From Mobula hypostoma (lineage: Eukaryota): a stretch of 64,000 nucleotides of DNA. Made by a program: the position numbers and the translations under genes. The notes under the pieces were generated by a model. It was not told the origin of the DNA. It was given only the letters and a program-made list of their open reading frames with translations, and did not search any database. Within the stretch, counting starts at the first letter, position 1. The number at the start of each line of letters is the position of its first letter. Shown piece after piece: positions 790 through 47,410 of the stretch. Location of the stretch: positions 111,416,001 through 111,480,000 of the forward strand of contig NC_086107.1 in the NCBI RefSeq assembly GCF_963921235.1, given 5' to 3'.

Positions 790-925
790 TGATGCCAAGC
801 AACAAACACAAAACTGAAGGAACTCAGCCAGTCGGGCAGCATCTATGAAGAGGAATAAACTGTGGATGGTTCAGGCTGAGACATTTCATCGGGACTTGGA
901 AAAGAATGGAGAGGAAGCCAGAAGA
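790..925 (-). mobile_element. Penelope-derived terminal repeat fragment with degenerate hammerhead motif
   Basis: Reverse complement of the family seen at 3520-3830 (GGAACTCAGC..GGCAGCATCTATG; TTCATCGGGACT). Confidence 0.7.
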
Positions 926-937
926 GGAATGTCCTCA

Positions 938-1150
938 TGCACGTGGCCAGGTGGCTAAGGCGTTCGTCTAGTGATCTCAAGGTCGCTGGTTCGAGCCTCA
1001 GCTGAGGTAGCGTGTTTGTGCCCTTGAGCAAGGCACTTAACCACACATTGCTCTAGTCTGTGCGAGGAGTGGCGCCCCACACAGACTTCCAATCTGCGCC
1101 CTGTAAGGCATGAAAATGCCCGACGCAGGCCTCTCACGGTCTGAGTCGAC
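938..1150 (+). mobile_element. tRNA-derived SINE
   Basis: A-box TGGCCAGGTGG and B-box GGTTCGAGCC, then GTGCCCTTGAGCAAGGCACTTAACCAC. Its head is shared with the copies at 14136-14425 and 19640-19938. Confidence 0.85.
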
Positions 1151-1171
1151 ATTCCCTCCCCTCCCCCTCCC

Positions 1172-1460
1172 CATGCAGGATTCCCTAAAGGTTAACTTGC
1201 AGGTTGAGTCAGTGGTGAAGAAGGCATATGCAATGTTAGCATTCATTGGACTAGAATATTAAAGCAAGGGTGTAATGTTGAGGCTTTATAAATCACTGAT
1301 AAGGCCTGACTTGGACTGTTATGAGCGGTTTTGGGCCCACTGTCTCAGAAAAGATGAAGAGGATTCAGAGAAGGTTTACAAAAATGATTCTGAGAATGAA
1401 AAGGTGACTATATGAGGATCGGTTGGTGGCTCTGGGCCTATACTCACTAGAATTCAGAAG
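1172..1460 (+). mobile_element. Degenerate CR1 fragment, resuming at about 2143-2250 after nested insertions
   Basis: Similar to 74-745 with stops. The sequence AGAATTCAGAAG...AAGAATGAGGAGAGGGAGTCTCATTGAA continues across the insertion. Confidence 0.75.
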
Positions 1461-2142
1461 ATAGATAGATAGATCCTTTATTGATCCCAATGGAAATTAC
1501 AATGTCTCAAAATAGGCATCCGTTAGTCTCATGACACCATGGATATGCACCTTGGAAGGTCTCCAGGGTGCAGGCCTGGGCAAGGTTGTATGGAAGACTG
1601 GCAGTTGCTCATGCTGCAAGTCTCCCCTCTCCACAACACCAATGTTGTCCAAGGGAAGGGCATTAGGACCCATACAGTTTGGCATCAGTGTCGTCGCAGA
1701 GCAATGTGTGGCTGAGTCACATTGTCACAGTAGCATTACAAATGCACAGATATTCAAATATTAGAAGGGAAGTAAGAAAGAATAAAAAAAATAAGTTACC
1801 TCAAACAGTCTAACGGGAGGGGGTCATCACTTCCCCAGCTACAGGTTGACTCATTATAGAGCCTAATGCCAAGGGTAAGAATAACCCCATATAGCGCTCT
1901 TCGGAACAGCACAGTTGTCTTAGTCTATTACTAAAAGTGCTCCTCTGTTTAACCAAGGTGGCATGCAGAGGGTGAGGAACGTTGTCCAGAATTGCCAAGA
2001 TTTTCTGTAGGGTCCTTTGTTTTACCACAGCCAGTGTGAGCCTCAGTGTGACTCCTATAACAGAGCCAGACTTTCTATCAGTTTACTGAGCCTGTTGGCA
2101 TTGCCCGTGTCGATGCCATTGCCCCAGCACACCACCGCATAG
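1458..2142 (-). mobile_element. Rex1/Babar-like LINE 3' fragment with (TATC)n tail, interrupted by a SINE at 1515-1712
   Basis: Minus-strand peptides WCAGAMASTR and KILAILDNVPHPLH...RLRQLCCSEERYMGLFLPLA resemble the Rex1/Babar ORF2 C-terminus. Confidence 0.7.
1515..1712 (-). mobile_element. SINE body/3' part (RTE-like tail)
   Basis: Closely similar to the 3' parts of 14136-14425 and 19640-19938 (GGCATCCGTTAGTCTC...GGAAGGGCATTAGGACCCATACAG). Confidence 0.8.
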
Positions 2143-2253
2143 AAGAATGAGGAGAGGGAGTCTCATTGAAGCCTATCAAATGTTGAAAGATCTTGATAGA
2201 GAAGATGTGGAGGGGATGTTTCCTATGGTGGGGCAGTCTAGTATCAGAGACCT

Positions 2254-2390
2254 GAGTTCTGCTGAAGGGTCTCAGCCCGAAACGTCCACTGTTTACTCTG
2301 TTCCACAGATGCTGCCTGGCCTGCTGAGTTCCTCCAGCATTTTGTATGTGCTGCTTGGATATCCAGCATCTGCAGATTTTCTCTTGTTTG
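2254..2390 (+). mobile_element. Penelope-derived terminal repeat with hammerhead motif (core A-to-C mutation)
   Basis: AGTT CTGCTGA AGGGTCTCAGCCC GAAACGTC CACT, followed by the family tail GATGCTGCCTGGCCTGCTGAGTTCCTCCAGC. Confidence 0.8.
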
Positions 2391-2747
2391 TGATTGCACC
2401 ACATCTTGGTATTGGTATTGGTTTTATTATTGTCACACGTACCAAGTTACAGTGAAAAGATTGTCTTGCATATGCACTCGGCTGGTGCAGTAACCTTTTG
2501 TAATGCATCAAAAGCCATCTGCTGGTCCAGATACTATTACAACTGCTGGTTCCTCTTTCTCAAGCCTTGCTACAGCCTCAAAGAACGCTAGCAAATTTGG
2601 CAATAACTATTTCCCCTTATCACAATGATATAATTTTCTGAATGGTCTGTGACACCTCATTGATAATGGATTCCCACATTTTCCCAATGTGAGATGTTAG
2701 GCTAACTGCGGCTTACGTTCCACATTTCTGCTTCTTTCTCCTTTCTT

Positions 2748-3519: not shown

Positions 3520-3830
3520 TACTTCCTTCTTCTCCATCTCTTTTCCTCTTCCACCGATCACCTCCCAGCATCTCACTTTATCACACCCCTCTCCCAATCC
3601 ACCCACTTTCCCCCTCACCTATCACCTGCCAGCGTGTACTCTTTCCCCTCCCCCCACCTCCTTATTCCGGCTTCTCTCCCACCCCCCCCGCCTTCCTTTT
3701 CAGTCCTGATGAAGGGTCTTGGCCCGAAACGTTGACTGTTTATCCCCCTGCATCGATGCCGCCTGACCTGCTGAGTTCCTCCAGCACCATGTGTGTGTTG
3801 CTCTGGATTTTCCGCATGTGCAGATTCCCT
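3520..3830 (+). mobile_element. Penelope-like element pseudo-LTR
   Basis: Pyrimidine-rich leader, hammerhead motif and conserved tail. The same organisation follows the Penelope ORF ends at 23795-24505 and 42915-43365. Confidence 0.85.
3701..3738 (+). ncRNA. Minimal type I hammerhead ribozyme motif (Penelope-associated), intact
   Basis: CAGTC-CTGATGA-A-GGGT(CTTG)GCCC-GAAAC-GTT-GACTG. Helix I is CAGTC/GACTG, the CUGAUGA and GAAA cores are conserved, helix II is present, and palindromic ACGT replaces helix III. Confidence 0.8.
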
Positions 3831-4554
3831 TTTGTTAGCGCCCTCTTTATTTTCTCATCTAAGTGCCAGTAGGAATTCTGTGACTCAGTCTTCATATAAC
3901 TCGCCAGTTTACTGTCACCGTTTAATCTCCTGCCTGAGTCCTGATGAAGGATTTCAGCTTAGAATGTTGACGTTCCTTTCCAGAGTGCTGCCTGATCTGC
4001 TGAGCTCATTTTTAATTTTTTGTTTTTGAGATACAGGATGGTAACAGGCCCTTCTGGCCCAACGAGCCCGCCCGTGGGACCAATTAACCTACTAACCTTC
4101 GGAATATGGGAGGAACTTGGAGGACACCCATGTAGTCACGGGAACAACATAGATACTCCCTACAAATTGTTGGGGGGGGTGAACTCAGTTCACTGGCACT
4201 GTGGTAGTGTTACGCTAGAACATATAGAATAGTACAGCACATTACTGGCCCTTCGGCCCTCAACGTTGTGCCGACCCTGTACTGACGTTACTGTACTGCC
4301 TCCAAAAATTCCTCCTTTATTCGATGTGTGTCTTCCATATTCCAACACCGGCAGAATCTCTTGTCTTTATTATCTCCTCCCTCCTTTCAGTTATTCTAAA
4401 CTTAATAGTCACTTTTTACTGCAACAGTGAAGTTTGCCAGTGCTCTGGTTTTTAATTTTGTACCTGGATGTAGAGACCAGTACAAATACTAACTCCAAGA
4501 TTGAAGGCGTCATAATAAGGCAGCTGGAATCTTGGTTTCCTCTCTCGGGTGTTA

Positions 4555-8725: not shown

Positions 8726-8899
8726 CAAGCGTGACCTGCAGGCTAGCAGAGGGAAGGAGTGCATTACACCCCCTTTGACAGAATCGGGTCTCCGCACTGT
8801 AACCTGGTTCCAAATGATGGGGGGACTTGTTATTTAACCAAATCATTTTCAAAGATTACACATTTTTATTGCTGAAATATAGAAAAGAACATCATAATT

Positions 8900-9154
8900 T
8901 TGACCAAGTGTTGGAGGAACTCAGCAAATCAGGCAGCATCTATGGAGGGGAATATATGGTCGAAGCTTCGGCCCGAGATCCTTCATCAGGACTGGAAAGG
9001 AAGGGGGAAGAAGCCAGGATAAGGAGGAGGATAAGGGAAGGAGTACAAACTGGCAGGTGATACCGGCTGAGGGGGGAGAGGTAGTTGGGTAGGGGATGAG
9101 GTAAGAATTTGGGAACTGATAGGAGGAAGGGCTGAAAAAGAAGGAATCTAACAG
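8900..9154 (-). mobile_element. Penelope pseudo-LTR fragment with degenerate hammerhead
   Basis: GAGATCCTTCATCAGGACTGG is the reverse complement of the CTGATGA core, followed by the purine-rich (inverted) leader. Confidence 0.8.
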
Positions 9155-9666
9155 GAGGGAGTACAAAGAAGGTTCACCAGATTGATTCCTGGGATGGCAG
9201 GACTTTCATATGAAGAAAGACTGGATGAACTGGGCTTGTACTCGTTGGAGTTTAGAAGATTAAGGGGGGATCTGATTGAAACGTATAAGATCCTAAAGGG
9301 ATTGGACAGGTTAGATGCAGGAAGATTGTTCCCGATGTTGGGGAAGTCCAGAATGAGGGGCCACAGTTTGAGGATAGAGGGGAAGCCTTTTAGGACCGAG
9401 ATTAGGAAAAACTTCTTCACACAGAGAGTGGTGAATCTGTGGAATTCTCTGCCACAGGAAACTGTTGAGGCCAGTTCATTGGCTATATTTAAGAGGGAGT
9501 TAGATATGGCCCTTGTGGCTACGGGGATCAGGGGGTATGGAGAGAAGGCAGGTACAGGGTTCTGAGTTGTGAGTTGGATGATCAGCCATGATCATACTGA
9601 ATGGCGGTGCAGGCTCGAAGGGCCGAATGGCCTACTCCTGCACCTATTTTCTATGTTTCTATGTTT
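9155..9666 (+). mobile_element. CR1 3' half (young, same subfamily as 74-745)
   Basis: ORF 9182-9565 is nearly identical to the C-terminal part of ORF 105-656, with a (CTATGTTT)2 tail. Confidence 0.95.
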
Positions 9667-15339: not shown

Positions 15340-15900
15340 ACCACACACAAAATGCTGGAGGAATCTTGAGCAATTTCTGACCTGAAAGATTCGGGCTTCT
15401 TCCCGCCGTCTTTTTCAGCCCTGATGAAGGGTCTCATCCCAGAACTTCAACTATTTATTTATCTCCATAGATGCTGCTTGACTTGCTGAATTTCTCCAGC
15501 ATTTTTATGTGGTACTCTGAATTTCCAGCATCTGCAGAATCTCCTGTGTTTACGGTCATCAGTGAGAACTTAGAAGGGATCCCTATCTCAATTGAATGCA
15601 GCAGACCCAATTAAATGCAGAACCATCAAAGATGAAAGAGTAAACTCAAGAGATCCTGCAGATGCTGGAAATCCAGAGCAACACACACAAAACTGCTGGA
15701 GGAACACAGCAGGTCAGGCAGCATCTATGGAGAGGAATAAACAGTCAACATTTGAGGTTGAGACCCTTCATCAGGACTGAAGCCAGAAGTGGGGTGGAGG
15801 GGGAGGGAAAGGAGTATCAATGTTGAGTGAGGGGAAGGTTGGGTGGGTGAGGAAGAGGGGTGTGAAATAAGATGCTATAAGGTGATAAGCTGAAGAAAAA
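15340..15900. mobile_element. Cluster of oppositely oriented Penelope pseudo-LTR fragments
   Basis: CTGATGAAGGGTCTC at 15421 (+) and GAGACCCTTCATCAGGACTG at about 15760-15779 (-). Confidence 0.8.
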
Positions 15901-16624: not shown

Positions 16625-16686
16625 CAGGGGTTCCCAACACTTTAATAGTATTGGTCCATGTCATACAAAAGGGCTGGGAACCCCTG
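16625..16686. mobile_element. 62-bp hAT MITE, same family as 11968-12046 in opposite orientation
   Basis: TIRs CAGGGGTTCCCA / TGGGAACCCCTG. Internal GTATTGGTCCATG is the reverse complement of CATGGACCAATAC. Degenerate TSD GAATAAGG/GGATAAAG. Confidence 0.8.
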
Positions 16687-18639
16687 GGATAAAGGGAATG
16701 AGGAGGGGAACCAGAGAGAGGTGATGGGCAGGTGAGAGTGGAACTGGAATGGGGAATAGAAAAAGAGAGAGGGAGGGAGGGGTGAAAGAGTATTATCAGC
16801 AGTATAATGCCACGGTATCCCTGAGCAACAGGCTTGAATTCTCCATACTGACCTATTATAGAATGTATCTAGGTCATTCCATCAACGTTTCAAATGACAC
16901 CGAATCTTGACAAGTGCTGCCTTGGCCTTTCTCTTTGTCAGCTCACAAAGTCCATTCAGTTAGGATTCACGCCTCCAGCAAAACTTTTAAGCAATAAATC
17001 GCATACGGTAATGGGGGAGAAAGAAGAAATATGAAACAAAATCTCCTCAGTACCGAAGAGAATGCAAATCCTACTACAGTACAACATTCCCCAACACCAT
17101 TTTCGGGACACTGTCAGAAATTACCCTACAGCTGCAAATCTCTGTACTTCCTGGCAGTTCACAATTATTGCTTGCTCCCTGTTTCACACTTGGACCTTGC
17201 ATTATTTTGAAATTTTGAGATAAAGATTACACGTACATCAAATCAAACGGTGAGGTGCATTGCTTCCGATAAGCTGGCAGTGTGCTCAGACACAGAGGCC
17301 ACTCCAGGTCCAACCAAGGATGCAGTTATTCACTTTGTATCTTTTTTAAGATCACAAGACTCTGCTGGTTATCAAGAATATCGAGTACTGCAGGCTTCCC
17401 CTTCAGCCAGTTGCTCAATAGTGACGGGGCTGGACTTACTAGGTACTGTAGTTGTGGTGTCACCTGGACTGGTTACGTACCGTCGCCGTGCCGAGGTGCC
17501 GCGTGATCCAAAAGAAAGTGCAAGTGACTGTCTTGGGACATTTTTCTTGCGATCGCAAGATCCTGTTGAACGTTGGTGATGTGGATTACTGCAAATCTGG
17601 TTCGCTGGTTTGTTGGTGAGACAGATGGCGGGGAGCTGTGTTGCCTTGGTTGTGGCGAGGACTAGGCCCTCAGACTACGGGGTTGCCTATTGCAGCCACC
17701 CAGGAGAGAAGACACTGAGGCAGTATGGGAGAGAGAAGAGGCATCTGTGGGTTTGCTGGAGTACGTGCTGGGATGGGGGCTTCTCTCCAGTGTTCCAGAA
17801 CATCCCATGCACCATCATTCCACAGGCCATGCCATTCAGGGCCTTGGACTATATTTTTTAGTGACTTTACATTTCCTGCTATCATAACTATATGTGCTAT
17901 GTGCTGTGTGCTGTTGGTAATGTGTTTTGCACCTTGGCTCTAGAGGCACACTGTTTCATTTGGCTATATTCATGTACAGCTGAAAGATAGTTGAACTTGA
18001 ACTTGAGTTTGCATCAAATTAAATCAGTGAGGAATGTGCTGGGGGCAGCCCAGAAGTGTTCCGCACACTTCACGGGCCTACCTAGTATGCCCACAGCTCA
18101 CTAATCCTAACCTGTATACTTCTCGAATGTGGGAGGATTCCAGGGCAGCCAAAGGAATTCTACGCAGTAACTGAGAAAATATACAAACTCCTTACGGGCA
18201 GCAGTGGGAAATGAACCCTAGCCGGAGAAGGATGGCGCCGTAAACTGATGTGCTAACCGCCACACTATCGTAACCCTGTATTCATGATGTAGGTATGAAT
18301 GACAAGGCCGGCATTTAATACATATCCCTAATTGCCCTGAAAGTGGGACGGTATGGCCAAAATGGTGTGGGGGCTACGATCGGACAGCTGGAAATATAAG
18401 AGACTGCAGATGCTGGAATCTGGATGCAGGACTGCAATGCAAAATATCGACAGCTCCTTTCCTCCCAGAGATGCTGCTCACCGAGTGACCAATACTGGGT
18501 GTGCTTGACAGAAAAGAAATATGACTTCACTATCTTCTCACCAACTATTCCCCCCAACTCCAATTCAAGAACTAACAGAATAGGCCAGGTGGATGCCCAG
18601 AATGGAACATACAGTCAAGTCATCAGCACCAATTCTGAG

Positions 18640-24505: not shown

Positions 24506-24884
24506 TTGGAATTGATTGTCCTGTTTCAACCCCAGAGTTCAGTTAGGATTGTATCTTTAGATCCAGAAACAAATGCTAATCCATTTGAGAGAGAAAAGGT
24601 TATGGACTGGGATGGTAAGTCATGGTTATAGCTTACAGATGTTTCCAGGTGCGGCATTGAAATGATTTAACGACAACAGAGATTTCTGAGGAGAAGAATC
24701 ACTTTTTTTTCATTTTTTTTCCTCAGTGAACTTCCAATAGAAATCAACATTCTTAGTGATGTACAGTGTGGCACTTTAAAACATTTAAAATAATTTGAAG
24801 GATCTGTTGATTTGTGCAATTCGACAACTTGACAATTTACTGGAAGTTTTTATGGCTCCTTGGCAATGCAGTGTAAGAATAGTC

Positions 24885-26600: not shown

Positions 26601-29374
26601 CTTGTCATTGGTCACAAATAATCTAGGCTTGGACTCAAATTAGAATGTTTAGTTAGTTGGATCTGTGCTTAATGTGGCCTGTTTCTGAAGACCAAGTCAA
26701 GAAACATGGTTTAAACCTGAACGTCTTGCAGAAGGAAACTGATGAGGTACACATTACTACAAATTCAGGGAGGTCTGGTTTCCTACGCAAATTGTTAAAA
26801 AAAATACATATTTTCTCTTTTTATATATAAAAAAATTCTATTTTGAAACCTGGACACTACACACTAGAGGTTGGAGATTCTCAACAAGTCAGGCAGCACC
26901 TGCGGAGGAGAATAAACTATCGATCTTCCGAGACCTTTCATGGTATGATTACATAGTGGCTGGCATAACATCTTACAGCGCTGGTGACTGGAGTACAATT
27001 CCTACCGCTATCTGTAAGGAGGATATACGTTCTCCCCGTGACTATGTGCCTTTCCTCCGGGTGCCCCAGTTTCCTCCCGCATTCCACAGACCTACAAGTT
27101 GGTAAGGGTTAGTAGGCTGTGGGCATGCTATGTTGGTGCCACTTGCAGACAGGACTTTAAGTTTTCACTTTGTCAGACTGTGTTGGCTTCCGGCGCAAAC
27201 GACGCACTTCATTCTGTTTCGATGTTTCAATGTATATATGGCAAACAAAGCTAATCTTAACATCTTATCTTATCAGGGTTGTCAGCTGAACAGCCGTCAA
27301 AGAAATATCGACTGTTTATTTCTCCCCATGGATTGTGTCTGACCAGCTGAGTTTCTCCAGCATGTCCTGTGTTGCTCAAGATTTCCAGCATCTGCAGAAT
27401 CCCCTGTGTTTTTAATTTTCAATCCCCAATACTACTGGACGAAAGCCAGCATTGCTCAAGTAAAAGCAAAAAATGCTGGAAATACTTGGGTCAGGTAGCA
27501 TCGGTGAAGTGGGAAAGTTACTGTTTCAAGCTAATGACTTTTACTCAAAATTTATGGCAGAGCCAGATAGGTTCTTCATTAGCCAGGGCGTCAAAGGGTA
27601 ATGGGGAAGGCAGGGGAGTGGGAATGACTGGAAGAATTGGATCAGCCCATGATTGAATGGCAGAGCAGACTCGATGGGCCGAATGGCCTACTTCTGCTCC
27701 TATATCTTATGGTCTTATATTCCTCAAGGCTGCCGAGGGCTTTAGTTGATGATGTTGATATCTTTAAAGTGATTGTTCAAGCATCCTTTGAGGCGCGGTT
27801 AACTTGAGAAAATTCACATCATGTTTATTGCTAAGTTGAAAACTTAAAGTTCAAAGTGAATCTATTATCAAGGTACATACTGCATACGTGCTCCCTTTCA
27901 CCTTCTTGCAGTTATACTCAAAAAAATCCAATAACCACTATAGAATCAATGAAAGGGAGCACCCACAGGATGGACAACCATCAAACTGGGCAAATACAAA
28001 AGAAATATAATAACAACAATCATGTAGGGTCTTTTAAGAGACTCTTGGATGGGTACATGGAGCTTAGAAAAACAGAGGGCTATGGGTAACCCTAGGTAAT
28101 TTCTAAGGTAAGGACGTGTTCGGCACAGTTTTGTGGGCTGAAGGGCCTGTATTGTGCTGTAGGTTTTCTATGTTTCTATGTGCCATGTTGTATGATGTGG
28201 ATGACCAAGGTCTATGATCATGACTGTTCTTGGCAAATTCTACAGAAGTGGCTTCCCATTGCCTTCATCTGGGCAGTGCCTTTACAAGATGGGTGACCCT
28301 AGCCATTATCAACTCTCTTCAGACTTTATCTGCCTGGTGTCAGTGGTCGCATAACTAGGACTTGTGATAGGCACCAGCTCTCGACTCATACGACCATCCA
28401 CCACTTGCTCCCATGGCTTCAAGTGACCCTGACTGGGGGGAGTGAAGCAGGTGCTACACTTTGCCCAAGGGTGACCTCCAGGTTAACAGAGGGCAGGAGC
28501 ACATTACACCTACTTTGGTAGAGATGAATCCCAAACTAATAAATAAATAAGCAATAAATATTGAGAACATGAGATGAAGAGTCCTTGAGAGCAGTTCACT
28601 GATGGAGACAGTGAAGTTATCCCCTCTGGTTCAACACTCTGATGGTTGAGGGGTGATAACTATTCCTGAACCTGGTGGCGTGGGTCCTGAGGCTCCTGTA
28701 CCTCCTTCCTGATGGCAGCAGCCAAGGGTTCCTGATGATAGATGCGAGATGCATCATCGCATTCTTTGTTAATAACATACATGCAAGTTAAAAATTACTA
28801 ACAGCTGGCAAATGAATTACTTGTTAGTGTTGTTTTTCAAGAGGGAGAGAGAGAGGGGCGGGAGATGACATTCTTGTGAATATATTTGATAGGATACAAG
28901 ATTTTGCCTTTTGATAGAAGGTTTACAGTTAGATTATCTATTTCTTTATCTATAGCAATCTCCACGTGGGCCTGTGTTTTGTTGCTCGTACTATTATCAT
29001 GACAGAGTTCAAAGTAAATTTATTATCAGAGTACATATATGTCATCAGATACTACCCAGAGGTTCAACTTCGTGCAGGCATTCACAGTAGAACAAAAAAA
29101 GAATAACTAGAATCAATGGAAACCAAAGCACAAGTGAAGACTGGCAAATAACTAATGTGCAAGAGAAGACAGATTACACAAATACACAAAAATAATGAAA
29201 TAAATAAATAGTACTGAGAACACGAGTCGTAGAGTCCTTGAAAGTGAGTCTATAGGTTGAATTGAATTGACTTTATTTCTTACTTCCTTCACATACATGA
29301 GTGAAAATCTTTACGTTACCTGTGGAATCAGTTCAGTGTTGAGGTGAGTGGTTGAGGGGTAATAACTGCTTAGG

Positions 29375-33018: not shown

Positions 33019-35424
33019 CATCGCCTTGTCTTGGACATACCTGCCGTTCTACTTTTTTAACAATCTACCCTATTTAACCCCTTCAAAATGTTGCATACCT
33101 TATCAAGCAGCTCAGTCTCCTCTGGGGAAACCGAATTCAGCCGGGCCAGTCTCTCCTCATGACTGAAATGCTCCAATCCAGGCAACGTTCTGCTGAATCT
33201 CCTCTGCCTACTCTCCAGCGCAAAGACGTCCTTCCTGTACTGCGGTGATCAGAATTGCACACAGAATTCTGGGTGGCATGACTTTCCAGCTGTTCTTTGT
33301 TCTATCTAGTGAGATCACTCACACTGAGTATGTTGTTTTCCCAGTGGCTAGTCTATTGGCGGGTCCTCGGGTGGCTGTGGAGACTGATCCAGGATCCACA
33401 TGCTCGGGTGCAGTGTGGGCAATTGCAAGTGCTGCCTGTGGATCGGTGTCTATGCTACTGTTGATGAAGGCAAACACTCCAAATGCACTCTTCACCTGGT
33501 CCACCTGTGCAGCCATTTGCACGGATCTAAGGGTGTATCTCAACGTCCTTCTATCCACCAGTCCTCCTCAGACATCTGCCAATTTATGGGTGTGCTCACA
33601 TTGCACTTTTTAGAATTCTCCAAAGCTCCACCCAACCTTCCAGCCAATCTATATACAGAGCTGTGGCCTCAAACAACCTTCCTCACTATCTACTTCACCA
33701 CCATCTGCAAACACACAGATCATACCTCCTACTTTCCATCCAAGCCATTAATATACATCAGAAACAATAAAGGCCCCAAGTGCACCACCATCACAGGCTT
33801 CCAGTCAGAAAAGCAACTCTCTCTGCATCCTTTTACCAAGCCAATTTTGGAGCCAAATAGCCAACTTAGGCCCTATCCTTTAGGAACAACCTTCCTAAAG
33901 TCCACATAGACAATATCTACTGAATTCTATTCATCAACTAGCCTAAATACTTCATAAAAAATCAATTATATTTGTACAAAACAGGATTCCCCACAAGCAA
34001 TGCTATGCTGACTATCCTAATTTCTGAAGAAGGGTTGCCAGTCCGGATGAAGGGTCTCGGACCAAAATGTCAACTGCTTACTCTTTTCCATAGATGCCAG
34101 CTGGGCTGCTGAGTCCCTCCAGCATTTATTTATCCTAATTTATTTATTTATAGACAGCGTGGAACTGGCTCTTGGAGTCGCAGTGCCCAGCAATTCCCTG
34201 ATTTAACCCTAGCCAGGGCAATTTACAATAACCAACGAAACCTGTAGCTGGATGTGTTTGGACTGAGGAAACTGGGAGAATGCACAACTCCTTACAGGCA
34301 GTGGCGGGAATCGCACCCTGGTTGCCTGTACTGTAAACCATTGTGCTAACCACTACACTACCATGCCACACTGCCTTTCCTATTGAAAATAAAATAAAAC
34401 GTAGAACTTCTTCCAGTTATTTTCCTACGGTTGACTCAAGGGCCTGTAGTTATCTGGTTTATTCCTGCTGCCCTTCTTGAATAAAGAAACATTAGTTAAC
34501 GTCGAGTCATCTTGTGCTTCGCTCGTGACTAACAAAAGATATAAAGCTGTCCCAGCAATCTCCTCACTTTTCTTCCAAAGCAAGCTGAAGCTCCAGTTTC
34601 AAGTTTGTCATTCAACCAGACATAAATATAGCCAAGTGAAACAGTGTTCCTCTGGGGTCAAGATGCAAAACACATTACCAACAACACATGGCATCTACTG
34701 AATGAACACCAGAGGGCAGCACTAAGCAAACACCAAGGGCAGGGCTGGTCCAGCACATGCAGTTTCTGGACCATGCAGTTTTGGCACAACTATACATAAC
34801 GAGTCCAAATGACAATACAACAAGAGGTGCACAATCTGCTGCTGGGATAGCCCTGCTGTAGTTAAAGTTCTTAGTATCCAGCAGGGACTTGTGATCGTAA
34901 AAGAGATATACAGGACAAACAAATCCACCTTCGATTGGACCTGGAGTGGCTGCTATCTTACCAGCCTGGGATGCATACTGGATTCCAGTGATGCTCAGAT
35001 CCTAACAAACTATAAACCAAAAATAAAGCTTTCAGACAAGCTATGAGTTATAGGACACAACAGGCCCTTCAGCCCATCTAGCCTGAGCCAAACCATTAAT
35101 CTGCCTAGTCCCTTCGGACTGCACCAGGACCACTGCCGTCCATACCCCTCCCATCCATGTATCTCTCCAAACTACTCTTAAATATTGAAATCGAATCCAT
35201 ACCCAGCATTTCCACTGACAGCTCACTCCACACCCTTACCGCACTCTGGGTTAAACCCCCAATGTTATTGAAGGCCCTGGAAGCTGGGACTCATTAGCGT
35301 TAATCTTAGCATTTCATGACAACTGGATCTAAAGTCACCAGTACAGTTTCCCTGGGCTAGGATATCTGTATCCTGCTTTAACATTTCACCGAGTTCCAAG
35401 TTTCATGGCTCCTTGAAAGTAGTT

Positions 35425-36005: not shown

Positions 36006-39000
36006 GAGAATGTGACTTAAAATCTTGTGTTTCTCTTTACCACGGTGTGGTTCACCATCTCAAAGGTTTGCACAAAGACCATTCATTCGTTGACCTTTGA
36101 CCTATATGGTCTTCTTTCTTCCCCCCTTTTGTCACATTGGGATTTGATTGGCAACTGCCTTTAGAAGAAAAAGTGACTTCACTGCTGGCTGGGATTGTTG
36201 CTTTGCTGGGCCTCAGGGTGTGAAGATGAAATACAAGACCATAAGACATAGGAGCATAATTAGGCCATAAGGCCCACCCATCACCTGCCTCCTCCCCATG
36301 ACCTTATTAAACAAGAATCTATCAACCTCCCAATGACTTGGCTTCCACAGCTGTATACAGTGGCAATGAATTCCACATATTCACCACTCTCAGGCTAAAG
36401 AAATTGCTCCATGCCTCTGTTCTAAAGCGACATCCTTGTATTCTGAGGATGTCCCCTTGTCCTAGAGTCCCAAGTCCACTCTATCTAGGCCATTCAATAT
36501 TCAGTAGGTTTCATTCTTTCTGTTCTGAGGCTGTGCCCTCTGCTCCTAGATTCCCCCACTCCAGGAAACATCTTCTCCACCTCCACTCTATCTCGGCCTT
36601 TCAATAGGTTTCAATGAGATACCCACCGCCACCCCCCCCCAACACAATTCTTTTAATCTCCAGCGAGTACAGGCCTTGAGCCATCAAACACTCCTCATAC
36701 ATTAACCCTTTTATTCCCAGGTTCATACTCATGAATCTCCTCAGGGCCATCTCCAACGCCAGCACACCCTTCCTTAGAGTGACCACTGAATGTATATGAG
36801 AGTGTGGGCATTCGTGCATTGGGATTCAATATCAACTGCAAGATTATCACAAGATCCTCCATCAATCGTACAGAACCACTTCTTAATATAGACTATCAGA
36901 AAGCAAGGAACCCCAAACCAGGCGCCTTCCTCTCTCCTTACTGCCACTCAAGCAGCTACTCAAACAAGACCGCAGCAATGGTCACAACCTTGTGTCATCC
37001 AAAATAAAACTTCAAGATTCAAAGTAAATGTTATTATCAAAGTACATATATGTCAATGTATACAACCCTGAGATTCATTTTCCTGTGGGCATACTCAGCA
37101 AATCTATACAATAACTGTAACAGGATCAATGAAAGATCAACCAGAGTGCAGAAGACAACAAACTATGCAAATGCAAATATAAATAAATAGCAATAAATAA
37201 TAAGAACATGAGATAATGAGATAAAGAGTCCTTAAAGTGAGATCATTGGTTATGGGAACATCTCAATAGGGGGAACAAGTGAGTGTAGTTGTCACTTTTT
37301 ATTCAAGAGCCTGATGGTTCAGGGGTAGTAGCTATTTGAACCTGGTGATGTGAGTCCTGAAGTACTTGTACCTTCTACCTGATGGCAGCAGCGAGAAGAG
37401 AGCATGGCCTGGGTGGCGAGGATCTCTGATGATGGATGCTGCTTTTCTACAACAGCGTTTTATGAAGATGTTTCATTTATCTTAGGCCATCTGTAGCAAC
37501 TAGCCATGTAACAAAGCACACTCTCAGAATTAAACCCTGAAACTATCTGACTGTCAGAATCAGGGTTACCCCTGATAAGTAACGCACCTTTAGCGTGTTG
37601 AGACATGGATGGGCAGACGGCTGAAAGAAAAATGGAGGAGAGAGCTATGGGGGAGAGGAGGGTTACATTGATCATAGGGTAAGTTAATGTCGCACAAATA
37701 TGGAAGGATCTGGACTGGTCTGTGTTCTATGTTCTATAAAGATTTATTGTATAAATAAACGCTAAAGTGAATGGTTCACTTTTGCATATCCTGGGATGTA
37801 AATCTGGGGAAGCCTGGAAAGACAGGGGAATATTTGAAGACATTGGGGAAGATGAGGGCCTAAGGACACTGGGAAGTGGCTGGCAGCCAGAGAGAACTTG
37901 GTGCCTGGGAGCTCTGCAAACGTGGAAACGGTCATCAGAGGTCAAATGGGCTGAAGATATTGTAAAACGGAGCAGATACGAATGAAGAGGAGGGAAGCAA
38001 GAGAAAGAATTATGTGAATTTCTGTAGCACCTTTCAAAATGTATTACAGAGATTCTGCAGATGCTGGAAATCTTAAGCAACACACACGTGGTGCTAGTGG
38101 AACTTGTCACGTCAGGCAACATCTATGGAGGGATTTAAACAGTCACTGGTTTGAGTAGCCACAATGCCCGAAACAATGACTGTTTATTCCTCTCTATAGA
38201 TGCTGACAGACCTGCTGAGTTCCCCCAGAATTTTGTGTGTGTTGTTCCAGAGGGCAAGGTACTTTTGTAGTGCAGTCATTCTGCACTGCAGAATTTGCCC
38301 ATCCAAATGCACATGGGAAATTCCAACAAACAGGAATGGTTAGCAGAAAAAGACACGACTTCTCAGTCAATCTCCAGGAACCTGAGCATCTCCAAATCTG
38401 TAGCTATCATGTCAGTGGCCCACTGTGGAACGGCAGCTAGGTTTCTCTTCTGATGCCTGCAAACCCGTGCAGAAAAACACACCAAACATCTGTTTTCAAC
38501 TGAATTCTTATCAAATTTCAAGAATCGATGATGCAACGAGTTCCTGGAACTTGAGTGTGTTTACGTTCCTGATGGCAGGGAACATTTAACTTTTCAATTT
38601 TCCCATAAATGTCCAGGCTACCTCAGGTTCGGCCGCTAACTTTGTCCTTGTTAATTGATTCCGGGTTAGCCAATTACTTCTAGCAGTGTGTAGTGAGGAA
38701 GGATAAGGCAATAGTCAATTCAAGGTCAAAGTTCAGGTCATCGTCATTCAATCTACATATGTATACAGCTAAATGAAACAACATTCCCCTAGAGCAGGGT
38801 GCACAACACAGTACATATCACTCACACACGTAACACACGAAGTAATATTGCAACAAATAACAAGGGTGCATTCACCATACAAATTAAAAAGTAAACAAAA
38901 TAACATTACTGGCGCTTCATACGTGTTGAGACAGTACCTCCTGTGTGATGGTGGGGGGTGGTGGGTTCAAAGATTGTTGGACAGATGGGAGGGACTATTG

Positions 39001-42250: not shown

Positions 42251-42914
42251 CAAGCAAAAGCGTAGTCAACAATGTAATTGGATTGTGGAATTGGATGTAA
42301 TAAACTGGACTGGAAGTTGTCTATTGAACAAAAGCAAAGAGAAGGATGAAATGGATTTTACACAGGAAGGAAGGCTGTGACTGGTGTGGCACTGCATCAC
42401 TATATAGGTGGAGGCGCCATGCACCTATTCCTCTCCTTGAAGACAAGAGATTCTGCAGATGCTGGAAATCCAGAGTAACACACACAAAATGCCGGAGGAA
42501 CTCAGTAGGTCAGGCAGCATCTATGGAGGTGAATAAACAGTCGACGATGAAGGGTCTCAGATCCAAACATCCACTTTTCATACCTCTCCACAGATGCTGC
42601 CTGACCTGCCGCATTCATCCAGCATTTTGTTTGTGTTGCTCCGGATCTCCAGCAGTGGCAGAAACTCTTGTGAATTCTTCCAAGTTTAATTGCGGATGTG
42701 AGAGAGGAGGGGGGTATAAAGGGGTCTGGAGAAGCCTGCTGAGTGGGTAAGGACATGGCAGGTGAAGTATAATGCAGAAAAATGTGAGGAGGTTATCCAA
42801 ACCCAGATGTATGGAGCAGAAGGGCAGAATATTTGTGAAATGGTGAAAGGCACTGATGTGTAAGGGGATCTGACCTATAGATGCAACCATACACAAAAAA
42901 TTTCAAATTGGTAG

Positions 42915-43365
42915 CTGAGGCCACCTTCAGGGTAGAGGAGCAACACCTTATAGCCTGTCTGGGTAGCTTGCAACCTGATGGTATGCATATCGATTTCTCT
43001 TCCAGTAAACAAGTTCACTCCCAGTCTAACTTTTACCTCCTCTCACCTGCCTATCACTTTCCCCCGGGTCCCCTCCTCCTTCCCTTTCTCCCACGGTCCA
43101 CTCTCCTCTCCTATCAGATTCCTTCTTCTCCAGCCCTTGACGTTCCCCACCCACCTGGCTTCACCCATCACCTTCCAGCTAGCCTTGTTCCTCTTCCCCC
43201 CACCCTTTTCTGTTGGTATCTTCCTCCTCCCTTTCCAGACCTGAAGAAGGGCCCCGGCCTGAAACGTCAACTGTGTTTTTTTTTCATTTCCATAGATGCT
43301 GCCTGGCCTGCTGAGTTCCTCCAGCACTTTTTGTGTGTTGCTCTGGATTTCCAGCATCTGCAGAA
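42915..43365 (+). mobile_element. Penelope-like element ORF end, pseudo-LTR and hammerhead (43236-43273)
   Basis: EATFRVEEQHLIACLGSLQPDGMHIDF (PLE C-terminus), then CAGAC CTGAAGA AGGGCCCCGGCCT GAAACGTC AACTG. Confidence 0.85.
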
Positions 43366-45939
43366 TTGTTCATGTTTATGAAATTGGTAGTGTGGATGAT
43401 AGTTATAGGGTGCTGGTAAGATGAGCAGACTGATGGCAGATGAAGTTTAATCCTTTACTTATTTATCTATCTTTCTATTTACTGATTTAGATGCAGCACA
43501 ATAACTGTCCAACGAGCCCACACTGCCCAATTACACCTATGCCACCAATTAACCTACTAGCCTGCGTGTCTTTGGCATGCCGGAGGAGACCAGAGCACCC
43601 GGAGGAAATCACTGCGGCCAAGTGCACGGGCTTTGGAAGAACAAGTGGGGATAGGACAAACTCAATAAATGAGAGGGCCCAAGGCAACACCAAGGAACAT
43701 GGGGACCTGAGTGTACGAGTCTTAGGTAGCAGCACAGCTACATAAGGTGATGGAGAGAGCCTCTGCCATAAGTTCCTTCATTGGCTAAAGCATAAACTAT
43801 TAGAAGCTGAACGGTTATAAACATTGGTTAGGCTACATCTGCTGCACTCTGCGCCACTCTAGTAGACACATTAATGGAAGGACTTAATTGCTCTGTGCTA
43901 GTGTGCTGCCTGGGATGGAATATTTAACTCATGAACATAGAACAGCACAGGCCCTTCGGCCCACAATGTTGTGCTGACCGTTTAAACTACTCTAACCCTA
44001 CCCCTCCTCTATTTTAATATCATCCATATGCCTAAGAGTCTCTTAAATGCCCCTGTTGTACCTGCTTCTGCCACCACCCCTGGCAGGGCGTTCCACACAC
44101 CCACCACTCTGTGTGAAGAACCTGCCTCTGACATCCCTGTTTACTCTTCCAATCACCTTGAAATTATGCCCCCTGGTATTAGCCACTTCCACCCCTGGGA
44201 AATAGTCTCTGGCCGTCCACCCGATCCATGCCTCTTATCACTCTGTACGTTTCCGCCAGGTTGGGCTGTGTCGGAGTAGAGGAAGCCAGGAGGGACGTGA
44301 CAGAACGGTGTGAATCCTGGGCAGGGTGGCTCCACGCAGGGAGGAGACCTCCTGCAGTGAAAAGGCCTCAAAGTTCAGAGTAAATTTATTATCGAAGTAC
44401 ACCATATACAACCCCGAGGTTCATTTTCTTGTGGGCATCCACAGTAACTACAAGAAACACGACACAATCAGTAAAAGACCGCTACTACCAGCAGGACGAA
44501 ACAACCAATGCGCAAAAAAAAACAAACTGCAAATACAAAAGGAAGAGAGAAAAGAAATAATAGTAAAATAATAGACAAATAAATAAATAAATAAGCAATA
44601 AATATCGAGAACATGGGATGAAGAGTTCGCGAAAGCGAGTCCGTGGATTGTGGGCACAGTCCAGTGATGAAGCGAGTGAAGTTGGTTCAGGAGCCTGATG
44701 GTTGAGGGGTAATAACTATTCCTGTACCTGGTGGTGCGGGTCGTGTACCTTTTTTTTCGGGAGCGTTGGGCACAGTTTTAGTCTCCTAACCTAGGAAAGA
44801 ATACATTGGCGGGCGTGCAGCGATGATTCGCCAAACCTATGCCTGTTATAGCGGGTCTGCCGCGGGGAGAGAGGTCGAGCAGACGGGGGACTGCATTCTC
44901 TCGGGTTTAGAAGAAGAAGAGGGGTTTTCATCTGAACATAACGGGCTCTTAAAAGGGTGGATGTGGCAAAAAGTCCAAGTCCGAGGAGCACGATTTGAGA
45001 ATGGGGGGGGGGGGTTCAGTCCACTCAGGGTTACGCTGGGGGCAACAAGTCTTCAGAGGGCAAGAGACCTTTGGAATTCTCCACTCGGGACAGTTGTGCT
45101 CGTTTAAAACGGCGATCAAAAATAAATATTGAGCAATCGGTGGAATGCGGGCAACGCGCAAAAATGGAGGGGCTCAGCGGATCGGAGGGTAGAAGAGTCG
45201 ACGTTTTGGGTCGAGACACTTCACCGGGACTGGATAGAAAACGGGGAGACCGCTAATATGAAAAGAGGGTAGTGTTGGAATAATGGCACTGTGGTGGATT
45301 AACTATGATGTTGAACGATGGAGGAGGCTTGACAGGACTGGATAACCCCCTCCTGCTCACCATTTTCTGTACGCTGAGACTATCCCGGGACCCCCAGTGT
45401 GAACGCCGAGCCGTTCCCCACACTACCTCCTCCTCCCCGCACACCGGCGATTTTTTTCCTGCGGGGAATCCGCGCTGCCCGGGACCCAGGTCACCGGCCA
45501 CTGCGTCCCAAAGGAGCCGCCAAGAGAGATCGGCACATTCCTCGCCCCGACCCCGGCAGAAAACTGGGATGCTTCACCCAAGAGTCGATCTGTCGCCATG
45601 GAACCCGCCACAGCTACCCGACTCAGGAGCCCATCATGACCGAGAGCAAGTCCTTCAAGTTGTTTATTTTGCGAAAGAAGCGCACTCGTGGTCGCAACGT
45701 TAGCCCGCTCCGTGTGCAACACTGCGTTAGTCCTTTCACGGATTTGCATTAATTTTTGATGCTGAAAATTAAACTGCAGGTTTTCCCTAAATATTTATCC
45801 GATGCTAAGCGTCATTCCCTAGAATACAAGCAACGGTGCACAAAGACAGTTTTCCTTGTTTTTTAGACATTTACTTACCCCGATTATGCAGTCATATTTC
45901 CTTCGCAGTGCTGTCCGGTTTATAAGAGCCACGATAATT

Positions 45940-45941
<2 letters not shown>

Positions 45942-45978
<37 letters not shown>
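45942..45978. repeat. (CA)n microsatellite, about 18 units
   Basis: Read directly from the sequence. Confidence 0.98.
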
Positions 45979-45980
<2 letters not shown>

Positions 45981-46150
45981 GCCCGTCCACTATCCCGCTC
46001 AGCCGGCAGATGCTTCAACTCCGGGTAGCGGGGGGGTCGTTCGGGTGCTGGAAAATCGGCACACTGTCCCACGGGGGCAAGCGAGTCGGGCAATGGGGTG
46101 ACGACGGGGTTTCCTGGCGGAGCATTGCCCCCCCACTCACCCCCACCCCC

Positions 46151-46185
46151 GTGTGTGTGTGTGCGTGTGTGTGTGTGTGTGTGTG
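46151..46185. repeat. (GT)n microsatellite, about 17 units with one GC interruption
   Basis: Read directly from the sequence. Confidence 0.98.
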
Positions 46186-47089
46186 GGTCCGACCTGCCGG
46201 TGCTGCGGGCCCCGAGGACGGCTGGGCCGAACGTGGTGGGCGCTCTCCACCTCTCACTCCGGCCAACTTTTGTCAGCTTGGCGAGTCGTTTGAAGCGCCG
46301 CCCTCCTCCCTCTCTCTCTCCCCATTTCACAGAAACTCCGCCACGCGCAGTCTTTCCAAGAAATTCAACCTGGGTTTCACTTTCGTACACGTCACTCGCT
46401 TGAGCTTTTTTTTTAACAGCAAGATAGCTCTTAAACCCACGGGCAGTTCCTACGTCCGTCTCAGTTTACAGATTATCGGCTCTCCGAGCAGCGATAATGC
46501 TGGACCGCGCTGAGCGGGGGTCGAGGCAAAGAGTGCAGGGGCAGTGGCAAAAGAAGATACGAGAGCTTTATTTAGGGCACAGAGAGAGATTTAATGTGCA
46601 CAAGCCTGAGGTATTTTGTTTTGCAAGAAACCATTTCTATAAACTGGCGGGACGAAATGTTGAGTCTTTTTTGGTGTTACACTAATTAGTAAATTTTTAA
46701 AATATTGTCACATGTACCGAGGTACAGTGAAAATCTTTGTCAAAATCAAAGTCGAGCTTATTGTCATATACACCAGTACTGTAAGCACGTGTGCAATTAA
46801 GAAGTAACACAGACGCTATTATTTATTTATTCTTAAAATACAGCGTGGCCGCGCAGCCCAGCAATCCCCCAATTTAACCCTAGTCTAACCACAGGACAAT
46901 TTACAATGACCGATTAACCTAGCAACCGGTAGGTCTTTGGACTGTAGGAGGAAATCGGAGCACCCGGAGGTATGCAGTCACGGGGAGAATGTACAAACTC
47001 CTTATTGGCAACCTCAGGAAATGAACCCAGGTCGCTGGTACTGTACTGTAAATAGCGGCTCTAACCGTTACGCTAGCGTGCCGCCGAAA

Positions 47090-47410
47090 ACACAGCAGGT
47101 CAAGGCAGCATCCATCTATGGAAATGATTAAAGTCGATGTTTTGGGCTGGGACCTTTCATCGGGACTACCTCACCCAACCACACACCTTTGTCCTCACCT
47201 GGTTTCACCCATGATCTGTCTGCTTGTATTCCCTCCCCTCCCCTCCCCTCCCCTCCCGCACCTTCTTATTCAGCTTTCTGTCCCCCTCCTTTCCAGACCT
47301 GATGAAGGGTCTTGGCCTGAAACATTGACTGTTTACTCCCCTCCATTGACGCTGCCTGACCTCCAGCATTTTGTGTGTGTTGCTCTGCATTTCCAGCATC
47401 TGCAGAATCT
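47090..47410. mobile_element. Inverted pair of Penelope pseudo-LTR fragments with two hammerhead motifs
   Basis: Minus-strand degenerate motif at about 47132-47167. Plus-strand CAGAC CTGATGA AGGGTCTTGGCCT GAAACATT GACTG at 47294-47331. Confidence 0.8.

What the first reader, a model, noticed from the sequence alone, without database searches (positions are those of the whole stretch)
790..47410. Dispersed family of Penelope-associated minimal hammerhead ribozyme motifs
Seen: at least 13 copies of AGTC-CTGA(T/A)GA-A-GGG..CCC-GAAACGTC-GACT at about 860(-), 2255, 3701, 3937, 8960(-), 15417, 15742(-), 24405, 34041, 43236, 45196(-), 47132(-) and 47294. In two cases (24405, 43236) the motif directly follows a Penelope GIY-YIG or C-terminal remnant. 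Known: Penelope-like elements carry minimal type I hammerheads lacking helix III in their pseudo-LTRs. Inference: what looks like an ordinary SINE is a ribozyme-bearing PLE terminus. It occurs here at about one copy per 4 kb, mostly without the ORF, so it may be a very high-copy retrozyme-like non-autonomous family in this lineage.
Basis: partly seen in the sequence, partly recalled or inferred. Interest (0 to 1): 0.7.

Follow-up and report, generated by a model that had tools for sequence, protein, structure and literature searches.

The report
Penelope retroelement stubs with hammerheads
These scattered motifs are the short end pieces of an abundant Penelope-type jumping gene that carries an already described tiny hammerhead RNA motif (predicted to self-cut); 12 of the 13 copies here are mutated and likely dead, and they are likely by-products of the full-length element rather than a separate mini-element family.

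Summary
The 13 motifs are at the stated places, plus 9 more partial copies. None matches the quoted motif exactly, and only 1 of 13 keeps an intact core and helices. They are 3' ends (pseudo-LTRs) of a Neptune-type Penelope-like element. The genome holds 3.5-kb copies with intact ~1,016-aa RT+GIY-YIG ORFs, several with the motif at both ends. About 550,000 copies are estimated genome-wide; 39 of 126 sampled reach the ORF. The motif is conserved between subfamilies (35/36 nt) but decays like its flank after insertion. This is the minimal PLE hammerhead of Cervera and De la Pena (2014). A separate retrozyme family is not supported: no hammerhead-bearing tandem arrays, no shared head, no private alleles. 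In 100 young copies, 29 begin within 16 nt at the ribozyme's 5' edge, solo starts are not enriched at the cut site, and 29 of 29 head-to-head pairs join one long-tailed and one short-tailed arm. That fits copying of uncut RNA from two internal start sites. The scan has noted this family many times, in this genome and at least 22 genomes. Verdict: new member of a known kind.

The parts
3702..3737 (+). Only window copy with an intact minimal hammerhead: helix I 5' strand AGUC, core CUGAUGA, extra A, helix II, GAAA, palindromic ACGU, predicted cut after U (GUU), helix I 3' strand GACU. It lies in a 5'-truncated PLE end, 3614-3838.
23797..24552 (+). 5'-truncated PLE copy: Zn-knuckle/GIY-YIG remnant with stops (23811-24131), 3' UTR, hammerhead motif 24405-24440 (core kept, helices damaged), tail
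42913..43401 (+). 5'-truncated PLE copy: last ~29 codons of GIY-YIG (42917-43003), UTR, motif 43237-43272 (helix I damaged), tail; flanked by a 10-nt target-site duplication
790..931 (-). PLE 3' stub with ~35 nt of UTR; motif 861-896, core broken
2255..2398 (+). Stub beginning exactly at the helix I 5' strand (-4 from C3), next to a LINE fragment; core broken
3935..4035 (+). Stub beginning at -6; core broken
8856..9159 (-). Stub with ~130 nt of UTR (the 5' edge of the hit may overrun into the adjacent LINE piece); motif 8958-8993, core broken
15389..15566 (+). Stub with ~27 nt of UTR; motif 15417-15452, core broken; a short inverted tail piece lies just upstream (15340-15363)
15636..15821 (-). 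Stub with ~60 nt of UTR; motif 15743-15778, core broken
34037..34127 (+). Stub beginning at -7 with an 11-nt target-site duplication; core broken
45165..45272 (-). Stub with ~40 nt of UTR; motif 45196-45231, core broken
47088..47431 (.). Head-to-head pair: minus arm 47088-47167 starting at -4 (core broken) and plus arm 47194-47431 with UTR (motif 47295-47330, core kept, helix I damaged)
42426..42687 (.).
38032..38258 (.).
21365..21694 (.). Two old arms, 21365-21516 (-) and 21622-21694 (+), with a piece of the PLE RT coding region (21496-21576, -) between them
26842..27547 (.). Three old, diverged stubs: 26842-26940 (-), 27302-27423 (+), 27437-27547 (-)
16681..16804 (-). PLE 3' UTR fragment without the motif

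Best explanation
The motifs are minimal type I hammerhead sequences in the terminal repeat (pLTR) of an abundant Neptune-type Penelope-like retroelement, and the window's copies are 5'-truncated, mostly mutated 3' ends that were likely made by that element's own enzyme from uncut RNA. SHOWN: a 3,513-nt monomer with one ORF (RT, CX4CX2C linker, GIY-YIG) ends in UTR, hammerhead and a 55-100-nt tail, and full-length copies are preceded by a partial copy, which puts the motif at both ends. Short copies have 8-17-nt target duplications, end at one of two places about 35-40 nt apart, often sit head-to-head, and pile up with 5' ends at the ribozyme's 5' edge. Inserted copies decay neutrally. INFERRED (about 0.55): the protein nicks both target strands and primes reverse transcription at two internal RNA sites, about +93 and +130 from C3, one site per strand. 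When it does so in the upstream pLTR of a transcript that starts near helix I, the cDNAs run off the RNA's 5' end after 95-140 nt and are inserted as solo stubs or head-to-head pairs. Long copies need a read-through or tandem template. INFERRED from other PLEs: the hammerhead is kept by selection only in replicating masters and cuts weakly, as a dimer or with the element's protein. Cutting is not needed to make these copies.
For: Intact ORFs of 1,011-1,043 aa stop-to-stop. Of 20 long-ORF loci, the motif lies 207-376 nt after the stop in 18, in the upstream pLTR in 7, and at both ends in 6. Pfam RVT_1 and GIY-YIG hit below their cut-offs (E 1e-4 and 1e-3); GIY-YIG passes its cut-off on another copy. 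DKG, YIDD, CX4CX2C, VIYC/LYIG and CCHH residues are present, and that linker defines Neptune/Nematis in PMC8557442 (passages). Systematic 800-kb sample: 126 core-covering copies, 39 ORF-linked, 0 in the reversed control; ORF coverage falls steadily 5'-ward (39 hits at aa 1000, 8 at aa 700, 0 at aa 100). Selection in masters: hammerhead 35/36 nt identical between a young full-length copy and the old-family consensus, against tail 75/100, GIY-YIG 325/400 and UTR 174/292 (p 0.003 and 0.011). No selection after insertion: core mismatch 119/1148 against tail 475/4833, p 0.58. 100 young copies: 29 5' ends in -8..+7 against 20 in the 50 nt below and 15 in the 44 nt above (p 4e-9; solo only 12, 9, 6, p 2e-4). 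3' ends: 52 at +86..102 and 47 at +122..141. All 29 distinct head-to-head pairs with both tails mapped join one short and one long end (39 of 53 rows mapped, 10 reciprocal; p 4e-9). Two internal RT start sites, a dispensable and protein-assisted hammerhead, and cutting and extension of both strands were shown in vitro for the anole PLE (PMC11167929). Solo starts at the cut site (+28) are 2 of 30, against 3 of 30 at +27 and 7 of 30 at +31.
Against: No RNA 5'-end data support a transcription start at helix I. 5' ends spread over -8..+7 and stay raised out to -52, so this is not one sharp site. The cap signature is weak: G precedes the -4 start 3,644 times against A 2,601. That exceeds genome composition but not my junction control of 18 G to 23 A (p 0.08), and in 3 of the 6 G-solo copies with a TSD the G belongs to the TSD. 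No helix covariation among copies could be shown (first helix I pair, p 0.11; the changes look like CpG decay). Predicted folds trap the core in an inactive monomer, and the active dimer is not the predicted ground state. The young masters have G-U instead of the conserved G10.1-C11.1 pair. The precise mapping used the young subfamily; the window's copies belong to older ones (72-89% identity to the old consensus), where the same pile-up is seen at lower resolution (77 of 169 starts in a 30-nt bin).
Confidence: 0.8

Rival explanations
1. One reading: a self-propagating, non-autonomous retrozyme- or SINE-like family made of the hammerhead plus tail, cut out as small (circular) RNA and mobilised by the PLE enzyme in trans.
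For: About 70% of copies lack ORF sequence (87 of 126; 71 of 100). Many begin near one place and have TSDs, so they look like a discrete 95-140-nt unit. Retrozymes are proposed to arise from pLTRs, and one cartilaginous fish genome was reported to have them (bioRxiv 10.64898/2026.07.22.740005).
Against: 0 hammerhead-bearing arrays among 23 arrays (period >=50) in the systematic sample, 23 in element-picked loci and 9 in long-ORF loci. No private alleles. Both ends vary. Six of 33 long-ended short copies continue 4-12 nt into the ORF-bearing body. Copies span the cut site and do not start at it. No shared upstream head.
Confidence: 0.07
2. Same element and same dead stubs, but the pile-up of 5' ends comes from a block or a favoured joining point at the hammerhead (RNA-RNA dimer, bound protein, or microhomology between the two cDNAs), not from the RNA's 5' end.
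For: 17 of the 29 hot-spot copies are arms of inverted pairs. Many junctions show short homologies made by the motif's own inverted repeats. The breakpoints are spread, and the cap signal is weak.
Against: The excess holds for solo copies alone (12 in 16 nt, 10 with TSDs, p 2e-4). A helix should stop RT at its 3' side (+28..+32), not after the last 5' base (inference). The -4 and -8 positions match initiator-like sequences (YYANWYY and TCAGTT, consensus recalled).
Confidence: 0.3
3. The motif starts right after a 3' splice acceptor (branch-like CTCAC/CTTAC, pyrimidine tract, CAG/TAG), and the short copies come from spliced RNAs in which an upstream exon is joined to the hammerhead exon.
For: The sequence upstream of helix I looks like an acceptor in both subfamilies (consensus recalled). 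In D. virilis Penelope the intron's 3' end maps to the 5' end of helix I (PMC4209133; intron in PMC2377424).
Against: In most solo young copies the TSD abuts the element start and leaves no room for an exon. Upstream flanks share nothing except other repeats. 0 of 47 solo copies start at -2, the predicted exon start.
Confidence: 0.05
4. The motif is not a ribozyme any more in this lineage but a protein-binding or promoter element that keeps a hammerhead-like sequence.
For: Inactive predicted folds, G-U at 10.1-11.1 in the youngest masters, no copies templated by cut RNA, no Rfam hit. Hammerhead mutants of the anole element still insert in vitro.
Against: All core positions, the extra nucleotide after A9, the ACGU palindrome and the NUH site are kept in masters. 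The anole PLE motif does cut once the protein is added.
Confidence: 0.15

Closest known systems
Minimal hammerheads (min-HHR) in pLTRs of metazoan Penelope-like elements (Cervera and De la Pena 2014, PMC4209133; parts 1-2 of 4 read, supplement searched for five terms)
   Same: Type I, no helix III, short helix I (4-5 bp), extra nucleotide between 9 and 10.1, palindromic 15.2-16.2, located in both pLTRs, mostly found as solo copies from truncated PLEs, reported in fish Xena/Poseidon/Neptune elements.
   Different: Helix II is 4 bp here (7-8 bp in Schistosoma, 6 bp in D. virilis). The youngest masters have G-U at 10.1-11.1. The estimated 5.5e5 core-covering copies (about 7e4 intact-looking, from 16 per 0.8 Mb) exceed the 4,000-9,000 motif hits reported for coelacanth and Xenopus, though the methods differ. 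No shark, skate, Callorhinchus or Leucoraja entry was found in the 2 supplement files searched; file 1 could not be searched.
EN+ Penelope-like elements, Neptune-type (Craig et al. 2021, PMC8557442; passages read)
   Same: Single ORF with RT and C-terminal GIY-YIG, CX2-5CxxC linker, CCHH residues, DKG motif, partial tandems forming pLTRs, heavy 5' truncation, adjacent inverted copies, and a 30-40-bp tail at one end only.
   Different: The clade was assigned by motif only; no tree with named PLEs was built, and Nematis shares the linker. The one-sided tail appears here as a strict rule (29 of 29 pairs).
PAc, Poseidon element of the green anole (Frangieh et al. 2024, PMC11167929; parts 1-2 of 4 read)
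   Same: Two internal RT start sites near the pLTR-ORF junction, both target strands used, uncut RNA as the main template, hammerhead not needed for insertion.
   Different: The PAc ORF starts inside the hammerhead; here the likely start codon lies 166 nt after C3. In vitro, PAc showed no difference in start site between strands, whereas the pairs here always use different sites on the two arms.
Non-LTR retrozymes of animals (PMC7229834, passages; bioRxiv 10.64898/2026.07.22.740005, parts 1-3 of 5)
   Same: Type I hammerhead, non-coding, high copy number, PLE-related.
   Different: Retrozymes are head-to-tail tandems of roughly 150-1000-bp units, mostly with canonical hammerheads, expressed as circles. 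Here there are no tandems, the motif is minimal, and copies are variable-length 3' ends of a coding element.

Membership tests
PLE minimal type I hammerhead | Core CUGANGA...GAAA...NUH in type I order, no helix III | tested here: met
   Column consensus of 169 sampled copies and full-length masters; met in only 4 of 13 window copies
PLE minimal type I hammerhead | Helix I (4-5 bp) and helix II can pair; extra nucleotide after A9; palindromic 15.2-16.2 | tested here: met
   47 of 64 young and 16 of 104 sampled copies pass
PLE minimal type I hammerhead | G10.1-C11.1 pair | tested here: inconclusive
   G-C in 57 and G-U in 48 sampled copies; the youngest masters have G-U
PLE minimal type I hammerhead | Compensatory changes in helices | tested here: inconclusive
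   First helix I pair p 0.11; variation dominated by CpG decay. Conservation between subfamilies is significant.
PLE minimal type I hammerhead | Located in both pLTRs of a PLE | tested here: met
   Both ends in 6 of 20 long-ORF loci, 3' end in 18 of 20
PLE minimal type I hammerhead | Self-cleavage as dimer or with protein | not testable with these tools
   Needs a bench assay; predicted folds do not favour the active state
EN+ Penelope-like element (Neptune type) | Single ORF with RT and C-terminal GIY-YIG | tested here: met
EN+ Penelope-like element (Neptune type) | CX2-5CxxC linker before GIY-YIG, CCHH residues, DKG motif | tested here: met
   aa 910 CX4CX2C, 950-956 cysteines, 975 and 991 histidines, 448 DKG; definition
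EN+ Penelope-like element (Neptune type) | Partial tandems, 5' truncation, inverted copies, one-sided 30-40-bp tail | tested here: met
EN+ Penelope-like element (Neptune type) | Placement in the Neptune clade by RT phylogeny | not tested
   No reference PLE proteins were fetched
Non-LTR retrozyme | Head-to-tail tandem units, each with a hammerhead | tested here: not met
   0 hammerhead-bearing arrays in the window before 51 kb, in 800 kb of sample and in 996 kb of element-picked loci; rare arrays elsewhere in 3.5 Gb are not excluded
Non-LTR retrozyme | Own lineage separate from coding elements | tested here: not met
   29 short and 29 ORF-linked young copies share alleles at 7 variable sites; 6 short copies run into the body
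Non-LTR retrozyme | Expressed as small circular RNA | not testable with these tools
   No RNA holder listed with raw reads
SINE (tRNA/5S/7SL head plus LINE-like tail) | Shared Pol III head upstream of the tail | tested here: not met
   No common upstream sequence in 57 solo short copies; no tRNA/5S/7SL family among the Rfam matches

The most novel reading that the evidence does not exclude
The hundreds of thousands of stubs are a fossil record of the PLE insertion reaction. The element's transcript begins at the foot of its hammerhead. The enzyme primes the two cut target strands at two different internal RNA sites in a fixed one-each pattern, and both cDNAs run off the capped end of the uncut RNA, a 'strong-stop' product that gets inserted. 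The hammerhead is then a protein-gated switch at the RNA's 5' tip that is not used to make the template.
Probability: 0.45. Interest if true: 0.55.

Novelty: new member of a known kind. Interest (0 to 1): 0.27.

Why it matters
As a ribozyme finding it is ordinary: minimal hammerheads in PLE pLTRs, mostly as solo truncated copies, were described in 2014. What has some value is scale and mechanism. A vertebrate genome carries about half a million such motifs and a young, ORF-intact family (64,745 exact hits to one 30-mer). The ends of those copies fit, and sharpen, the only in vitro model of PLE insertion: two internal start sites, both strands primed, uncut RNA as template. The one-long-one-short rule and the 5'-end pile-up give direct predictions for CAGE and for in vitro priming assays on a class whose mechanism and ribozyme role are still open. 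For annotation, these repeats should be filed as PLE ends, not as a SINE or a retrozyme.

Tried and rejected
Rfam scan: no hammerhead family at E<=10. Pfam on five window frames gave nothing; the remnants were identified with an intact ORF instead. RNA evidence: no RNA holder listed. 22 runs were returned, all contigs, with RNA status guessed or unknown; laying four of them gave no starts, ends or strand, so expression is untested. A shared SINE head or upstream exon was rejected. cDNA fold-back through helix I as the source of inverted pairs was rejected: it predicts matching tail ends, and 29 of 29 pairs have unlike ends. Copies templated by cut RNA were not found. The excess of inverted junctions at +28 (17 of 30) mostly shows short homology between the arms, and solo starts are not enriched. 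A cap-derived G was tested and is inconclusive. Covariation within the genome was inconclusive. Folding z-scores of five motif sequences were not significant (-1.34 to +0.72). No protein homolog search, structure prediction or tree was run, so the clade rests on motifs. Literature searches that returned nothing: 'hammerhead ribozyme' + 'Penelope' + 'cartilaginous'; 'Penelope' + 'SINE' + 'sharks' + 'retroposon'; 'Penelope-like elements' + 'twin priming'. The library lacks most subscription papers, Repbase and Dfam were not searchable, supplement file 1 of PMC4209133 could not be searched, and the supplements of the 2026 preprint were not seen; they may list this family. A paper reporting that PLE hammerhead variants cleave as dimers is recalled only; one search returned two papers that contain the phrase.
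Full report
1. Observation. Pattern scans and a profile built from the 13 named copies found all of them at the stated places and strands. A second profile, built from the 3' 850 nt of 30 genomic copies that carry the endonuclease end, gave 23 hits in the window, 22 with the tail, and 0 hits on 800 kb of reversed genome sequence. The repeat is real and far beyond chance; an exact 36-nt consensus occurs 878 times in the genome against 0 for its control. The copies are decayed, 72-89% identical to the old consensus. Two are linked to GIY-YIG remnants across a UTR of about 240-280 nt, 7 carry part of that UTR, and 4 begin at -4 to -7 from C3. Rfam has no matching hammerhead model at E<=10.

2. 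The parent element. The window lies in a 3.48-Gb animal genome. Its repeat content looks like a shark's or ray's; that label is recalled and echoed by earlier scan notes, and was not tested. Of the 29 other best genomic matches to the window's GIY-YIG remnant, nearly all have the motif or its tail about 240-300 nt downstream. A search with an RT fragment returned 146 scored matches, nine with open frames above 1,000 aa. I fetched 20 long-ORF loci. The motif lies after the stop in 18, in the upstream repeat in 7 and at both ends in 6. In L076 the monomer is 3,513 nt, and the frame is 1,043 aa stop-to-stop with a likely start at residue 28. It has DKG, YIDD, a CX4CX2C linker, VIYC/LYIG and CCHH residues and weak Pfam RVT_1 and GIY-YIG hits. 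By the description in PMC8557442 (passages) this is an endonuclease-bearing PLE of the Neptune or Nematis type. No tree was built.

3. Copy number and ORF linkage. I took 80 stretches of 10 kb at fixed 40-Mb steps on the large contigs; this is systematic, not random, and small contigs were not sampled. It holds 169 tail-bearing copies and 126 that cover the core, 39 of which reach the ORF. That extrapolates to about 5.5e5 core-covering copies (bootstrap 4.3-6.6e5) and 7.3e5 tails. ORF coverage falls steadily toward the 5' end, the usual truncation gradient. Of 104 copies that span the motif, 16 look intact. One 30-mer of the young subfamily has 64,745 exact hits.

4. Is the motif under selection? 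Among inserted copies the non-CpG core positions carry as many mismatches as the tail (119/1148 against 475/4833, p 0.58), so single copies are not maintained. Between a young full-length copy and the old consensus the motif is 35/36 identical, against 75/100 for the tail, 325/400 for GIY-YIG and 174/292 for the UTR, so it is maintained in replicating masters. Covariation could not be shown. Predicted monomer folds form helices I and II but trap the core, and the active trans-dimer is not the lowest-energy dimer. This agrees with the low, dimer-dependent activity in PMC4209133 (parts 1-2 read) and the protein-assisted cleavage in PMC11167929 (parts 1-2 read).

5. Retrozyme or SINE? Retrozymes are defined as hammerhead-bearing tandems (PMC7229834, passages; bioRxiv 10.64898/2026.07.22.740005, parts 1-3). 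Tandem Repeats Finder found 23, 23 and 9 arrays of period 50 or more in the sample, the element-picked loci and the long-ORF loci; none held a hammerhead core. The upstream flanks of 57 solo short copies share no head. 29 short and 29 ORF-linked young copies have the same alleles at all 7 variable sites. Six of 33 long-ended short copies run 4-12 nt into the element body, which only an ORF-adjacent pLTR can template. A separate family is therefore not supported, though rare arrays elsewhere are not excluded.

6. How the stubs form. I mapped the first 100 genomic hits of the young 30-mer, all from the first 4 Mb of one contig. 29 reach the ORF and 53 are arms of inverted insertions. 24 of 47 solo copies show a duplication of 8-17 nt. 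3' ends fall in two clusters, +86..102 (52) and +122..141 (47), with one outlier. 5' ends pile up at -8..+7: 29 copies, 2.8% per nt, against 0.4-0.8% per nt on either side and 0.09% further up; this also holds for solo copies. For 39 of 53 inverted arms the partner's tail could be mapped. They make 29 distinct pairs, and every pair joins a short end to a long end. That excludes simple fold-back and matches two priming events at the two internal start sites described for the anole element. Starts at the cut site are not enriched among solo copies: 2 of 30 at +28, 3 of 30 at +27, 7 of 30 at +31, or about 29, 18 and 103 genome-wide. The same kind of estimate gives about 870 young solo starts at -4 (10 of 30 of 2,601; the patterns differ in length, so the ratio is rough). 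The templates were therefore uncut. The simplest reading is that the transcript starts near helix I and short cDNAs run off its end. Penelope itself has an internal promoter and start site in its pLTR (PMC2377424, passages). Against this reading, the ends are spread, and the G excess before -4 (3,644 G, 2,601 A, 91,545 pyrimidine) is not significant against my small junction control (p 0.08). No RNA data could test it.

7. Prior art and the scan. Minimal hammerheads in fish PLE pLTRs, and their spread as solo truncated copies, are in print. The one-sided tail and inverted copies are also in print. My searches found no paper on this motif in cartilaginous fish or on twin priming in PLEs, within a library that lacks most subscription journals. 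The scan holds 76 notes with these words in at least 22 genomes, and several in this genome reach the same reading, including the 5'-end pile-up and two-ended priming. These are unchecked AI notes, not independent support. I had seen the pile-up before reading them. The cap/run-off idea and the cut-site test were prompted by them and tested here.

8. Verdict. The identification as a PLE terminus is right, and the retrozyme reading is not supported. New member of a known kind; interest 0.27. The mechanistic signature in the copy ends would deserve about 0.55 if confirmed (probability about 0.45).

Noticed in passing
window 51819-64000: 12-kb minisatellite with a 33-nt unit and higher-order 99-nt period; it accounts for the many repetitive ORFs there.
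   Followed up: no
window 21365-21694: A piece of the PLE RT coding region sits directly against a hammerhead-tail arm, with a second arm facing away: possibly an internally deleted copy inserted as an inverted pair.
   Followed up: partly
L076:6385-6420; window 3675-3703, 8992-9020, 43210-43238: The sequence just upstream of helix I resembles a 3' splice acceptor (branch-like CTCAC/CTTAC, pyrimidine tract, AG) in both subfamilies. In D. virilis Penelope an intron ends at this spot. Insertions could act as cryptic acceptors in host introns.
   Followed up: partly
L076-L095 (young full-length copies): The youngest masters have U at 11.1, giving G-U, or an alternative A-U register, instead of the conserved G10.1-C11.1 pair, and C at position 7 that stabilises a predicted inactive fold.
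   Followed up: partly
window 34013-34145: Between the upstream 11-nt duplication and the start of the copy lie about 13 nt that resemble the hammerhead core, perhaps a slipped first attempt at copying.
   Followed up: no
window 32025-32092 and 30684-30741: Palindromic stretches hit Rfam mir-9256 below its gathering score on both strands; they look like facing terminal inverted repeats of a Tc1-like MITE (label recalled).
   Followed up: no
window 75-656, 7140-7604, 9152-9565, 21913-22347: 3' coding ends of an abundant LINE, CR1-like by recall; several PLE stubs lie in or next to them.
   Followed up: no
window 49321-49647 (-): The reading frame resembles the C-terminal end of a hAT/Buster transposase (label recalled).
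   Followed up: no
window ~15900-16430 and ~50500-51090: Two copies of another repeat with similar translations; similar sequence flanks both ends of the full-length PLE in L078.
   Followed up: no
window ~45000-46500: GC- and CpG-rich stretch (GC about 0.50 against 0.44 around it), possibly a host promoter island; the stub at 45165-45272 lies at its edge.
   Followed up: no
L258-L287 (solo copies with G before the -4 start): 10 of 14 are preceded by TG, and in 3 the G is the last base of the target duplication; this could reflect pairing of a cap-templated base with the target.
   Followed up: partly
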